A stretch of 64,000 nucleotides of DNA, from NCBI RefSeq assembly GCF_009914755.1, contig NC_060926.1; one strand, written 5' to 3'. A model generated the notes under the pieces. That model did not search any database. It was not told where the DNA came from and saw only the letters and a program-made list of their open reading frames with translations. The DNA comes from the human T2T-CHM13v2.0 reference genome, Homo sapiens. Below are positions 9,501-55,220 of this stretch, piece after piece (within the stretch, counting starts at the first letter, position 1; each line of letters starts with the position of its first letter). Position numbers and translations under genes: made by a program.

Positions 9501-12500
9501 TATCCCTAAATTGTCATCCTGTAGGTAATTTTCACTTAATGAAGCAAAAATTGTATATCAGACAGAACTTAATGTAAATCTTAGCTCTACTTAGTTTACA
9601 GCTACTAAACTGTAAAATCCCTAAAATATTAATTATTCCAGAAGGGTAAATGAGATGTCACTTATAAAGTATAACAATGCCTAATAAGACAGTAGATGCT
9701 CAGAAAGGTTTTAATACACTTTTTAAAAGAAAAATGTTAAAGGAAACACAAACACCTGAGCTTAAGGTTTGCTATTGAAAAGTAATTTAAACTCCAAATA
9801 TTAGAAATGGTTATGTCTTAAGTTTTCTCCCTTTATGTTTTGTTTGTTTACCTTTAGTTTATAAATTGCAGGACTTCCTGGGAAAAGTTTTGCTGCTCTT
9901 TCGACCCAGTATTTTGCTCTTCCATCAGTAACATCATTTTTACAAAGCAATTCTGCAATCTTCAACACAAGATCTTTTTGTGTTGGGTTTAATTCCACTG
10001 AACGCTAATATCAGAAAAGAAATTAAAGATTAGTAAATAAATTGTATGTATGTATGTAGGAGTATATATACTTATACATAAAGGTTAAAAATTATCACTC
10101 CAACCCTTAAAAAATTCTACTTCTAGAGAAAACATGTTACTTTAAAGGTGTTAAAATAAAAGTGTCTTGGAATTTTCTAGAAATGAATCAAATAAAAATT
10201 ATATTTGTGTCATTTGAATGCAAAAAACACAAAAGAACACCATTTCTGACCGTGTTAGACTTACAATTTATAGGTGTTAAACAATTCTAAATCTGTTCCA
10301 AGCTGTATCACATAATTGTACTATGATACCAATGCCTGTTTTATGATATTCATAAAATATATTTGACTTACTTATATAAATTTCTCTGGGCATCATGTGT
10401 TTGGCTACGCAAAGGCTATATTTGAATCTTATAACTTACCCTGTAACATTCAACGGCTTTCTCTGTGTTTTCTTCCAATTCATAAAGAAGACCCAGAAAT
10501 CTGTGAGCTTTGGGATCCCTCTCTTGCACATTAATGTAAGTACATATGTATCTGTTTTTTAAAAGTAATACAAAAGTAAATTAAACTTAGAACTGTACTT
10601 TTAAATGCTAACCGAAGAATACATCTTAAACCAAAGCAACCACTAAACTCGTTTATATTGTTACTCAAAACTACCACTATTTATGCAGATAACTCAAAAG
10701 TATTCATAGAAAGAAATGGGTAATACTTAAAAACACGTACATAGAGTTGACCACATACTCATTTTACCATTAAATGTCACATTTACCAAATTTTTCTCCA
10801 GTGTTAACCACACATAAGAAATGAACATATAGATTGCTTTTTCTTCCTGATCACATTTTAATAAAGCACTAACAGTTTTGCCAATAAATTAGAAGTGATT
10901 ATAATAAACATTTTTAAAGTTATCATAATGCAAAATACTAAACAGCAACAATTTCCCAAACAACAAAGGGAAATACATTTACCCTTTAAGCAAGAAAGTA
11001 ATTTCTAACAGTACTATATCCAGCTAAAATCGAACAGAAGAAAAATTACTAATTACAGTACCAAATACAGGAAATTTCCATTTCTCAAATCAAGTAACAA
11101 CTAAAATAAGTAAATATCCTCTAGGTTCCTTGACAGTATTACGATCAGAGAAATTAGGCCAGACCTAAACTAAGGGATTAAAGTCTCACAGTAAAAAGGT
11201 ACAAGAGTTAACAGTCACAGTGCTGCTAGTTACATAATTTATGTACCACCATTTTCCTTTCTTACCAGCATTTCCATCTTCCTTTGGATGCCTTTAAAAG
11301 CCTGCCTCCCAGCTGGGAGCAGTAACACACACCTGTAGTCCCAACACTATGGGAGGCCGAGGCAGGCAGACTGCTGTGCTCAGAAGTTCAAGACTAGCCT
11401 GGGCAACATAGTGACACCTGTCTCTACCAAAAAATGCAAACCTTAGCCAGGTCCACGTGGTGGTGCGCATCTGTATCCCCAGCTACTTGGGGCGCTGAGG
11501 TGGGAAGATCGCTTGAGCCCAGAAGGCAGAGGTTACAGTGAGCAAAGATGGAGCCAGCTGCTGCACTCCAGCCGGAGCAAGAGAGACAGATACTGCCTAA
11601 AAAAAAAAAAAAAGCCTGCCTCCCTCTTAATTTCCTGCTTTAATCCACTCCCAGCCAGGAAATCAGAATCACCAAGCTTCTCATCCCTAGGATAGAGCCT
11701 TAGAGCATCACATATTGTGTCAGTTAAAGATCTTTTATACAAGCTATTCTCCTGCCTTACAATTACAGTTTAATTTTTTATTCATTGCTATTTTCCATCT
11801 GATTAAGGTATCAGATATCTAACCAAAAACAAATTAAGATATAGGCATGGTCCTCTTTTACTCCAACAGAAGACAATTTTTAGAAAAAGTGTTTTAAGCC
11901 AAACAATTTCTTGCCCTTGGTATAAAGCAGCAGCATGCAGAAAACACTAATTACAGTTTCAATCTCAATGGAATCTAGGCTGGTCCTTAGCATCAGTCTG
12001 AGTGATAAATCCCTTATTCCAGAATACACTTAGGAAGAACTACTAAGGACATATTTTTACCTATTTCAAAGAAGAAAATGAGAAAAGGCATTGATTTTAA
12101 AAAAAAGAATACATGTTACGGTTTGTACTTACTTTTTAGCAAGATCATATTCTTTAGCTTCATAATACAGCTTTGCAAAATAGAATCCTTTCATTGACTT
12201 CTAAAAAAAAATTAAAAGTTGTTTTACGTTTCATACAGAAATATTTTCCAACATTTTTTCAAAAGTAGTTAAAGCCTGACAAATGCATAATTCCATGTTT
12301 TATAATTTCCTACCACAAAACAAAAAATAGAGCTGGGTGCAGCAGCTCATGCCTGTAATCCCAGCACTTTGGGAGGCCGAAGTGGGCGGATCACCTGAGG
12401 TCAGGAGTTTGAGACCAGCCTGGCTAACATGGTGAAACCCCGTCTCTACAAAAATAGAAAAATTAGCCAGGCATGATGGCGGGTGCCTGTAATCCCAGCT

Positions 12501-54048: not shown

Positions 54049-55220
54049 CTCCTAGGGTTCCGTCTGCTCATCAGACAACAGATATTTATTGAATGTAAGT
54101 AGTTGCTGAGGTTTTATGCTTCACTGACATTCTACCCCCTGGGAATGAGTGTTCCTGGGAATGTGCATTTCTTTCCTTTTTTTTTTTTTTTTTTAACAAA
54201 ACCAGGTTTTTCCCTAAGGAATGCACCTTCCCCAAAGTTTCCCGCATCCTCCTGCCTACATAATTCACTTATATAGTCACTATGACATTAATTAGATTCA
54301 GAAGTCTGTGGAAACAGCAGAGCTCGGCAGGGTCAGAGGGCAAGCAGGGCAGAGAAAAGAGAGGGGAAAATGAGCCCCGGGAGAGGGGAAGGAAGTGGAG
54401 GGAAGTTTTTCATGCCCTTCAAGTACCAAACAAAACAAAGATAATTTCAAAAGTGGTCAGCCACTATAACACTGCTTAGAGAATTAAAGTATTGACAAAT
54501 TGAAGAGTGCTTTAAAATAAAGTGGATGGGGCATAAGCATGTATGTCTTGGTGTTAGTTGCTCCTTATACAGCCGGTACTAAAGGCTGGTGGGTGAAGCT
54601 TACTACATTTTAAAAAGAAAAAGGCAGGCACACATACTAAAGTTGAAAATGCAGGCAGGAAGGACATTTACTTTTCATAAAAGCGGATCAGAAAAGCATC
54701 TCCTATCACAGATCATGTATTTTATGCCATGCTGACCAATGTTGGGGGATAATCTCATTATTTTGTGATATGAGAAGATCCTTTGATGCTGGTAACAAGA
54801 ACCAATCATCCTGACTTAAATCTTAATATCCCCACAGGTTCTTTGTCATGCGTCTTCAAGATGTGCCCTGGCCATTCATGCAAGTTTCAAGGACTCTGAA
54901 TCTGTTGAGAAAAAGAGGTTACGTTCCAATTCTGCTTTAGTTCCAACCCAAATGCTGAGAAACACTCCATGGAATTTAATTACAGGGCGATAACTGTGAT
55001 CTTACCAAGATTTATGAACAGGAAGATCCTTGGTGATTGTAGTCAGTCAAAGGGTGGCTTTGACATAGCACCTATCTGTTAGGGCAAATACTGCCAGGGA
55101 AAAGGTGACATTTGGAATCATCTGGGATTGGACTCTTGATCAATAGATGCGAAATGTCAGGTGGACATGAGAACTGTTGGTCTTTGGTACATATGTGTTG
55201 CAATGAGTAAGGATGAGTAA

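What the first reader, a model, noticed from the sequence alone, without database searches (positions are those of the whole stretch)
12133..54062. Captured AFF3 promoter and start exon 34 kb upstream of RGPD: a candidate AFF3-RANBP2(-GCC2) chimeric transcription unit
Seen: a second CpG island on the same strand as RGPD holds an intact AFF3 start-codon exon (acceptor at 53743, Kozak CCCACCATGG at 53666, donor TG|GTAAGT) and an upstream exon donor at 53880. No downstream AFF3 coding exon is visible, so the next clear coding acceptors on this strand are RGPD's. Known: RGPD genes are hominoid RANBP2-GCC2 fusions, and this AFF3 island is described as a brain-active alternative promoter carrying the FRA2A CGG repeat. 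Inference: segmental duplication gave this RGPD a third donor gene and a second, possibly neural or lymphoid, promoter. Long upstream RGPD5/6 transcript models may already be annotated, but I do not know of the AFF3 origin being characterised.
Basis: partly seen in the sequence, partly recalled or inferred. Interest (0 to 1): 0.9.

Follow-up and report, generated by a model that had tools for sequence, protein, structure and literature searches.

The report
AFF3 promoter copy upstream of RGPD6
A 25-kb duplicated piece of the AFF3 gene, carrying part of its brain-active promoter and its start-codon exon, lies upstream of RGPD6 and RGPD5 and most likely acts as an extra promoter and untranslated leader, not as part of a fusion protein.

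Summary
Window 29728-54911 is a segmental duplicate of the AFF3 5' region, with 0.90% substitutions over 24.2 kb. It lies in sense orientation 33.5 kb upstream of RGPD6 exon 1, and an inverted twin lies upstream of RGPD5. CHM13 holds only these three copies.

The duplicate carries:
- the downstream half of the AFF3 intron-2 CpG-island promoter
- a shortened, interrupted copy of the FRA2A CGG tract
- the alternative first exon (53955-53881)
- the first coding exon (53742-53614, ATG at 53666)
- about 24 kb of the following intron

It lacks 3,988 bp upstream of the CGG tract and every later AFF3 coding exon.

- Spliced to RGPD6 exon 2, the only listed downstream exon with an acceptor, the AFF3 ATG is out of frame. 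It gives a 17- or 19-codon upstream ORF, so no AFF3-RGPD fusion protein is encoded.
- A second ATG (53634) is in frame with RGPD6.
- The duplicated island shows no CpG decay, which suggests it stays unmethylated in the germline.

The 24-kb repeat was reported in 2014 (PMC3998887), and RefSeq already lists these exons under RGPD6. I found no paper naming AFF3 as their source. No expression data could be checked. Interest is modest.

The parts
29728..54049 (.). Main block of the AFF3 duplicon. It is colinear with chr2:100539456-100563729, which holds part of AFF3 intron 3, exon 3, the alternative first exon and the CGG tract.
   Evidence: 98.47% over 24,375 columns, with 218 mismatches in 24,221 aligned bases (0.90%). 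One search shows a sharp proximal edge at a poly(A)/(TA)n stretch.
54045..54911 (.). Distal AFF3 block, matching chr2:100567718-100568592. The 3,988 bp that separate the two blocks in AFF3 are missing here.
   Evidence: 98.3% identity, 7 mismatches in 867 bases. The junction lies inside the CGG tract and is the same in the RGPD5-side copy.
52800..54050 (.). Retained downstream part of the AFF3 intron-2 CpG island.
   Evidence: GC 0.62-0.86 and CpG o/e up to 1.08. Over 52400-53960 there are 122 CpG in 1561 bp, against 123 in 1621 bp in AFF3; no CpG loss on the window side in the island (0 of 111) against 17 of 209 in the rest of the duplicon.
53929..54049 (-). CGG-rich tract paralogous to the AFF3 CGG repeat. 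It has 10 pure units (53963-53992) and 6 pure units (54032-54049), separated by a G-rich spacer.
   Evidence: AFF3 in CHM13 has one pure tract of 17 units at chr2:100563686-100563736.
53881..53955 (-). Copy of the AFF3 alternative first exon. RefSeq lists it as an RGPD6 exon and the RGPD6 gene span ends at 53955. Its donor is GTGAGT.
   Evidence: plus the hub table. Metsu 2014 section 7 places the TSS and an alternative exon 1 immediately 3' of the CGG repeat.
53614..53742 (-). Copy of AFF3 exon 3, the first coding exon. ATG1 is at 53666-53664 and ATG2 is at 53634-53632 in another frame. The donor is GTAAGT.
   Evidence: The stretch from ATG to donor is identical in AFF3, the RGPD5 side and the RGPD6 side.
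12133..12200 (-). RGPD6 exon 2. It is the first listed downstream exon with an acceptor (a T-run followed by TAG, and a tandem AAG acceptor at 12197). It is the inferred splice target of the AFF3-derived donor.
   Evidence: and the hub table.
19859..20128 (-). RGPD6 exon 1 from the RANBP2-derived promoter, with the canonical ATG at 19930. It has no acceptor, so upstream-initiated transcripts skip it.
   Evidence: no AG before 20128; its 24 codons match RanBP2 residues 1-24, for example in 4GA0.
20196..23938 (.). RANBP2 upstream sequence carried with the RGPD core duplicon.
   Evidence: 98.27% identity to chr2:109148358-109152093.
23939..29727 (.). Spacer between the RANBP2-derived and AFF3-derived duplicons. 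Apart from Alu-like pieces it was found only here and in the RGPD5-side copy.
54025..55595 (+). lncRNA LOC105373553 (exons 54025-54094 and 54838-55595), divergent from the same island. Exon 1 spans the deletion junction, so its structure is specific to the 2q13 copies.
   Evidence: Hub table. Splice sites were checked: donor GTAAGT at 54095 and acceptor CAG before 54838.

Best explanation
The region is a case of promoter and leader-exon capture by segmental duplication. A 25-kb piece of the AFF3 5' region was copied to 2q13 and landed in sense orientation 33.5 kb upstream of the ancestor of RGPD5 and RGPD6. The piece holds the TSS-bearing downstream half of the intron-2 CpG-island promoter, a CGG tract, the alternative first exon, exon 3 with the start codon, and 24 kb of intron 3. 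The copied exon-3 donor has lost its AFF3 acceptor. Transcripts that start at the copied TSS therefore splice about 41 kb downstream to RGPD exon 2 and skip RGPD exon 1 with its start codon. That splice is inferred from the RefSeq exon list, not seen here. On such mRNAs the strong-context AFF3 ATG opens a 17- or 19-codon upstream ORF that stops at the junction. RGPD can then be translated only by leaky scanning to a second ATG in the AFF3 exon, or from RGPD Met27. The second ATG gives seven new residues followed by RGPD6 from residue 25. The AFF3 piece thus supplies regulation and a probably repressive leader. It does not supply AFF3 protein sequence. The direction of copying was AFF3 to 2q13.
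For: Copy number is three: the 801-bp island probe found three full-length matches besides short CGG-rich hits, and the 8-kb probe found 3 matches with 32 of 32 candidates scored. The source is AFF3. The site patterns group the two 2q13 copies against AFF3: of 24,126 ungapped columns, 170 set both 2q13 copies against AFF3, 46 are private to the RGPD5 side and 35 to the RGPD6 side. Splice sites are intact, and the stretch from ATG to donor is identical in all three copies. RGPD6 exon 1 and the alternative exon 19374-18907 have no AG acceptor, while exon 2 has a strong one. The hub's RefSeq table lists 53881-53955, 53614-53742 and 53614-53739 as RGPD6 exons, with the gene span ending at 53955. 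CpG is retained in the copied island: 2.6% of island CpG sites differ by a transition against 16.7% in the rest of the duplicon (Fisher p=1.4e-5), and losses on the window side are 0 of 111 against 17 of 209 (p=9e-4). The divergent lncRNA has a first exon that spans the junction specific to 2q13 (hub table). Three points support AFF3 as the source locus. Metsu 2014 reports that the intron-2 TSS is conserved in mouse. The AFF3 locus is continuous across the 3,988 bp and the island half that the copies lack. The 2q13 copies sit in a mosaic of other duplicons.
Against: No RNA, CAGE or methylation data were examined. The link from the AFF3-derived donor to RGPD exon 2 rests on the hub's exon list and on my reading of the splice sites. 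The table does not say which exons are joined, nor whether the models are curated or predicted. Because the two leader exons are nearly identical in AFF3, reads from AFF3 itself could have supported them. Only the junction into RGPD is specific to 2q13. The copy lacks all AFF3 sequence upstream of the CGG tract, so promoter strength and tissue pattern may differ from AFF3. The CpG-retention test has no outgroup, and gene conversion from AFF3 could contribute to it. Metsu et al. state the opposite direction of copying, from 2q13 to 2q11.2.
Confidence: 0.78

Rival explanations
1. The AFF3-derived island is a passenger. It is silent or produces only rare, non-productive transcripts and the divergent lncRNA. 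Essentially all RGPD6 output comes from the RANBP2-derived promoter at 20128.
For: The copy lacks the 3,988 bp upstream of the CGG tract, including about 0.5 kb of the island. The leader carries a strong-context out-of-frame ATG whose stop lies far upstream of the last exon junctions, which by inference predicts poor translation and nonsense-mediated decay. The selected RefSeq transcript starts at 20128 (hub table). [quoted passage not shown]
Against: RefSeq lists three exon forms from this island under RGPD6, plus a lncRNA whose first exon spans the junction specific to 2q13 (hub table). The island shows no CpG decay since duplication.
Confidence: 0.3
2. The captured exon yields a real chimeric protein. 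Translation starts at the second ATG (53634-53632, G at -3 and +4), giving seven residues read from the AFF3 exon in another frame, followed by RGPD6 from residue 25. The result is an RGPD isoform with a replaced N-terminus.
For:: this ATG is in frame through all six downstream exons in the window, for either exon-2 acceptor. The sequence is identical in the RGPD5-side copy. The replaced part is RanBP2 residues 1-24. Mao et al. link the N-terminal residues to the alpha1-alpha2 interface (preprint passages).
Against: The first ATG lies 32 nt upstream in an optimal context (CCACCATGG). Its ORF overlaps the second ATG, so only leaky scanning could reach it. No protein or ribosome-profiling evidence was seen.
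Confidence: 0.12
3. The 24-kb sequence is native to 2q13 and was copied into AFF3, as Metsu et al. 2014 word it. On that reading RGPD did not capture AFF3 sequence.
For: Discussion of PMC3998887: 'a duplication and inversion of a 24 kb sequence from 2q13 to 2q11.2'.
Against: The block contains the first coding exon of AFF3, which reads in frame into the AF-4 domain exon. It also contains a TSS that the same paper reports as conserved in mouse. AFF3 holds the other half of the same CpG island, which the 2q13 copies lack. The 2q13 copies are flanked by unrelated duplicons.
Confidence: 0.03

Closest known systems
AFF3 intron-2 alternative promoter with the FRA2A CGG repeat (Metsu et al. 2014, PMC3998887)
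   Same: The CGG tract, the TSS-proximal alternative first exon, exon 3 with the start codon and the following intron are shared at 99.1% substitution identity.
   Different: The copy lacks the 3,988 bp upstream of the repeat. Its CGG tract is 10 plus 6 units with a spacer, against 17 pure units in AFF3. Its exon-3 donor has no AFF3 exon to join.
[quoted passage not shown]
   Same: This is the same object. There are two 2q13 copies plus one beside the AFF3 CGG repeat, with a breakpoint at the repeat.
   Different: The paper treats it as a FISH cross-hybridisation signal and an evolutionary breakpoint, and reads the direction as 2q13 to 2q11.2. In the passages and section I read it does not mention RGPD5/6, the copied exons or their splicing.
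RGPD family as RANBP2-GCC2 fusion genes (Ciccarelli et al. 2005, not read; cited in the passages)
   Same: Gene structure is remodelled by juxtaposing duplicons on chromosome 2.
   Different: The RANBP2-GCC2 join is an in-frame coding fusion. The AFF3 join is out of frame for the AFF3 start codon and affects only the promoter and leader. It is confined to RGPD5 and RGPD6.
Promoter gain by duplicated genes, for example HYDIN2 at 1q21 gaining a new promoter and neural expression
   Same: A duplicate gene acquires a foreign 5' end at its new site.
   Different: Here the canonical promoter and first exon are kept as well, and the foreign leader carries an upstream ORF.

Membership tests
Segmental duplicate of the AFF3 5' region | At least 1 kb and at least 90% identity to the AFF3 locus | tested here: met
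   24.4 kb at 98.47% plus 0.87 kb at 98.3%
Segmental duplicate of the AFF3 5' region | The source locus is AFF3, and the copied exon is its first coding exon | tested here: met
   The only AF-4 (PF05110) hits on chr2 lie at 100210927-100467947 on the minus strand. The ATG exon at 100563334 reads in frame into the exon at 100467951. Metsu section 7 names exon 3 as the first coding exon.
24-kb 2q13 low-copy repeat of Metsu 2014 | Two 2q13 copies and one AFF3 copy, with a breakpoint at the CGG repeat | tested here: met
   That the copies flank NPHP1 is taken from the paper and was not tested here.
In-frame fusion gene (AFF3-RGPD chimeric protein) | The donor gene's start codon reads in frame into the acceptor gene's ORF | tested here: not met
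   The AFF3 ATG stops after 17 codons (acceptor 12200) or 19 codons (acceptor 12197)
Promoter and first-exon capture (chimeric transcription unit) | Sense orientation, intact donor sites and no intervening acceptor of the source gene | tested here: met
Promoter and first-exon capture (chimeric transcription unit) | Transcripts spanning the junction from the captured exon to the host exon | not testable with these tools
   Only the hub's RefSeq exon list is available, and it does not show the exon chains
Promoter and first-exon capture (chimeric transcription unit) | The captured island still behaves as a CpG island | tested here: met
   CpG o/e is 0.80 over 52400-53960, against 0.77 in AFF3. 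There is no CpG decay in the island compared with the rest of the duplicon. This is indirect and has no outgroup.
Folate-sensitive fragile-site CGG repeat (FRA2A type) | An expandable CGG tract in a promoter CpG island | tested here: inconclusive
   The tract is present but short and interrupted in CHM13: 10 plus 6 units here, and 6, 5 and 6 units on the RGPD5 side. Expansion and methylation are not testable here.

The most novel reading that the evidence does not exclude
The captured AFF3 promoter, which is brain-active at its home locus, gives RGPD5 and RGPD6 a recently acquired neural expression programme. It yields an RGPD isoform that lacks RanBP2 residues 1-24. The copied CGG tracts at 2q13 are expandable paralogs of FRA2A that could underlie the still unmapped fragile site FRA2B, silence this promoter, or both.
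Probability: 0.1. Interest if true: 0.6.

Novelty: new member of a known kind. Interest (0 to 1): 0.35.

Why it matters
It explains where the distal RGPD5/6 exons in RefSeq come from. It shows that they cannot encode an AFF3-RGPD fusion protein. It makes a testable prediction: a second, AFF3-like regulatory input to two recently duplicated RGPD genes, damped by an upstream ORF.

There is also a practical consequence. The AFF3 alternative first exon, exon 3 and about 1 kb of the island downstream of the FRA2A repeat are almost identical at three loci. Short-read RNA-seq, CAGE, bisulfite or array methylation assays and CGG genotyping aimed at the AFF3 promoter can therefore pick up the 2q13 copies, and the reverse also holds.

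Tried and rejected
- **Later AFF3 coding exons:** I scanned the copied intron for a frame-keeping exon with good splice sites. It gave one weak 39-nt hit, which I treat as chance.
- **Source of the 23939-29727 spacer:** two searches of the window's own CHM13 genome assembly (own-genome searches) found only the RGPD5-side twin and Alu-like hits. Its origin is unresolved.
- **Literature linking AFF3 to RGPD5/6 exons:**
  - 'AFF3'+'RGPD' returned 7 papers. I read passages from 4 (PMC10754333, PMC9808627, PMC7844047, PMC11204237). The other 3 were seen only as listings and look like gene lists.
  - 'AFF3'+'NPHP1'+'segmental duplication' returned 1 paper.
  - 'RGPD5'+'RGPD6'+'promoter'+'chimeric' returned 4 papers, of which 2 were listed and read by passages.
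  - 'LOC105373553' returned 1 paper, seen as a listing only.
  - 'AFF3 pseudogene/AFF3P1/AFF3 paralog/AFF3 duplicon' returned 2 papers, of which 1 was listed and is unrelated.
  - 'AFF3'+'2q13'+'CGG' returned 7 papers.
  - None connects AFF3 with RGPD exons. Only Metsu 2014 mentions the repeat.
- **FRA2B:** I considered the copied CGG tract as its basis. A 2020 preprint proposes BCL2L11, a 2022 review lists FRA2B as not mapped, and the tract here is short. I keep this only as a low-odds idea.
- **Supplements:** none were opened. The Iso-Seq gene models of the 2026 pangenome preprint might show the 5' ends of RGPD5/6.
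Full report
**1. Observation**

- An exon runs from 53742 to 53614. An AG precedes it at 53744-53743.
- It contains CCCACCATGG with the ATG at 53666-53664, and it ends TG|GTAAGT.
- An upstream exon ends at 53881 and is followed by GTGAGT.
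- The region is a CpG island. GC is 0.74 for 53001-54000, and CpG observed/expected is 0.89-1.08 between 53400 and 53999.
- These are the exons that the hub's RefSeq table lists as RGPD6 'exons of other transcripts' (53881-53955, 53614-53742, 53614-53739). The RGPD6 gene span ends at 53955.

**2. What the region is**

A search of the window's own genome with 53300-54100 found three full-length matches. The other hits were short and CGG-rich.
- the window itself
- chr2:110221394-110222165, in inverted orientation
- chr2:100562974-100563729, in the same orientation

An 8-kb probe (44000-52000) also found exactly three copies, with all 32 candidates scored.

After fetching chr2:100.50-100.60 Mb, blastn gave one colinear alignment. 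Window 29728-54049 matches chr2:100539456-100563729 at 98.47% over 24,375 columns, with 218 mismatches in 24,221 aligned bases (0.90%, or 0.61% outside CpG context). A second block joins window 54045-54911 to chr2:100567718-100568592 at 98.3%. Both outer edges are sharp.

The source locus is AFF3.
- Pfam AF-4 (PF05110) matches chr2 only at 100210927-100467947 on the minus strand.
- The ATG exon at chr2:100563334 reads in frame into the exon starting at 100467951, which carries AF-4 positions 1-40.
- That next exon lies about 95 kb downstream, far beyond the duplicon. A scan of the copied intron found no credible frame-keeping exon.

Metsu et al. 2014 (PMC3998887; passages, section 7) describe the home locus. 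[quoted passage not shown] An alternative exon 1 lies just 3' of that TSS and is spliced to exon 3, the first coding exon. The window's two exons are copies of these two (alignment).

**3. What was and was not copied**

In AFF3, CHM13 has one pure tract of 17 CGG units at 100563686-100563736. Colinearity with the window ends inside that tract.

The next 3,988 bp of AFF3 are absent from the window. They begin with about 0.5 kb at GC 0.8, which is the other half of the island. The window sequence then resumes with AFF3 sequence from 4 kb further upstream.

The window has 10 and 6 pure CGG units separated by a G-rich spacer. The RGPD5-side copy has the same junction, so the loss predates the split of the two 2q13 copies.

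The captured promoter is therefore truncated. It keeps the TSS region and everything downstream, but nothing upstream of the repeat.

**4. Neighbourhood**

- Window 20196-23938 is RANBP2 upstream sequence (98.27% to chr2:109148358-109152093).
- Window 23939-29727 was found only here and in the RGPD5-side twin, apart from Alu-like pieces.
- Parts of window 55.5-64 kb match chr2:106664422-106681533 at 92-95%.
- The whole stretch 10502-64000 aligns as one inverted block to chr2:110211478-110265000 at 99.37%. RGPD5 therefore has the same arrangement.

A three-way alignment of the AFF3 block has 24,126 ungapped columns.
- 170 sites set both 2q13 copies against AFF3.
- 46 are private to the RGPD5 side and 35 to the RGPD6 side.
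- Pairwise distances are 0.85% and 0.90% to AFF3, and 0.34% between the 2q13 copies.

This is a typical duplicon mosaic. The AFF3 piece and the RGPD core sit 5.8 kb apart and were later duplicated together. Passages of Mao et al. [quoted passage not shown]

**5. How it most likely works**

RGPD6 exon 1 (20128-19859) and the alternative exon 19374-18907 are not preceded by AG. Exon 2 (12200-12133) has a long T-run and a tandem TAG/AAG acceptor. Among the listed exons, the donor at 53614 can therefore only join exon 2, which skips the canonical start codon at 19930. This step is inferred, because the hub table does not give exon chains.

Joining by coordinates in a script gave these frames.
- **First ATG (53666, optimal context).** It reads 17 codons and stops at a TGA formed by the last two bases of the AFF3 exon and the first base of exon 2. 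With the 12197 acceptor it reads 19 codons.
- **Second ATG (53634-53632, G at -3 and +4).** It is in frame with RGPD6 through all six downstream exons in the window. It would give seven new residues followed by RGPD6 from residue 25.
- **RGPD Met27 (12194).** It lies 5 nt after the upstream ORF's stop.

The same holds for RGPD5, because the ATG-to-donor stretch and exon 2 with its splice sites are identical there. Exon 1 encodes RanBP2 residues 1-24.

The AFF3 piece can therefore contribute a promoter, a leader and an upstream ORF, but no AFF3 protein sequence. That the leader lowers translation and invites nonsense-mediated decay is inference from general rules of scanning and NMD.

**6. Is the copied island alive?**

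I could not see expression or methylation data. Two indirect points argue that it is not a dead, methylated relic.

The first point is CpG retention.

| Region | CpG shared | CpG in window, TG/CA in AFF3 | CpG in AFF3, TG/CA in window | Other |
|---|---|---|---|---|
| Island (52800-53960) | 111 | 3 | 0 | 1 |
| Rest of duplicon | 192 | 26 | 17 | 23 |

- Transition differences affect 2.6% of island CpG sites against 16.7% elsewhere (Fisher p=1.4e-5).
- Loss on the window side is 0 of 111 against 17 of 209 (p=9e-4).
- This is the pattern expected if the copy has stayed unmethylated in the germline.
- There are two caveats. There is no outgroup to polarise the changes, and gene conversion from AFF3 is not excluded. 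However, overall divergence in the island is not lower than elsewhere.

The second point is the RefSeq lncRNA LOC105373553. It starts at 54025 on the other strand, has consensus splice sites, and its first exon spans the deletion junction. That structure exists only at 2q13.

**7. Direction of copying**

Metsu et al. word it as 2q13 to 2q11.2. I read it the other way, for three reasons.
- The block holds AFF3's first coding exon and a TSS that they report as conserved in mouse.
- The AFF3 locus is continuous across the part the copies lack.
- The 2q13 copies are embedded among other duplicons.

**8. Comparison with what is known, and novelty**

- The repeat itself is in print. Metsu et al. describe a 24-kb low-copy repeat with two copies flanking NPHP1 and one beside the AFF3 CGG repeat.
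- RefSeq already annotates the exons under RGPD6.
- The RGPD papers I read in passages do not mention AFF3.
- My searches found no paper that names AFF3 as the source of RGPD5/6 upstream exons.
- Gain of a foreign 5' end by a duplicated gene is a known kind of event.

I rate this as a new member of a known kind. It is correct at the DNA level, overstated as a three-gene fusion, and of modest interest until expression is shown.

**9. Limits**

- No transcript, CAGE, methylation, proteomic or non-human genome data were available.
- Dating from 0.85-0.90% divergence is rough and sensitive to gene conversion.
- Supplements of the preprints were not seen.

Noticed in passing
window 19353-19831: A large GCC/CGG-rich minisatellite (period about 55, 8.4 copies, about 450 bp) lies in the RANBP2-derived CpG island just downstream of RGPD6 exon 1. 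It is probably the kind of highly variable RGPD CGG repeat discussed by Annear et al.. It is distinct from the AFF3-derived tract.
   Followed up: partly
window 23939-29727: A 5.8-kb stretch between the RANBP2-derived and AFF3-derived duplicons has no other high-identity copy in CHM13 except the RGPD5-side twin. It may be the original acceptor-site sequence. RefSeq marks an enhancer at 24604-25104 (hub table).
   Followed up: partly
window 55500-64000: Patchy 92-95% matches to chr2:106664422-106681533 indicate another duplicon abutting the AFF3 piece. An L1-like repeat also lies at about 59650-61830.
   Followed up: no
window 54025-54094 (+): The first exon of lncRNA LOC105373553 starts inside the CGG-rich region and crosses the junction created by the 3,988-bp loss. 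This transcript structure can exist only at the 2q13 copies (hub table).
   Followed up: partly
G000 chr3:136154727-136155597 (+): Pfam AF-4 positions 5-90 and 177-340 match within 900 bp with one stop. This looks like an intronless, processed copy of an AFF-family gene.
   Followed up: no
window 29728-53960 against the RGPD5-side copy: The two 2q13 copies differ at 0.34% of sites in the AFF3 block. That is much more than expected from the age of about 5.2 thousand years quoted for RGPD6 in Mao et al.. It fits better with the 1-2 million years mentioned in the 2026 preprint. The gene body may have been homogenised by conversion more recently than its flank.
   Followed up: no
window 53068, 53300, 53747: At three island CpG sites both 2q13 copies keep CG while AFF3 has TG or CA. 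Without an outgroup it is unclear whether AFF3 lost them or the copies gained them.
   Followed up: no
literature: Annear et al. 2021 report that the CGG repeat with the largest median length in their survey (56 units) lies between RGPD5 and RGPD6 at 2q13, where FRA2B maps. I did not locate that repeat, and it is not in this window's AFF3-derived tract as assembled in CHM13.
   Followed up: no
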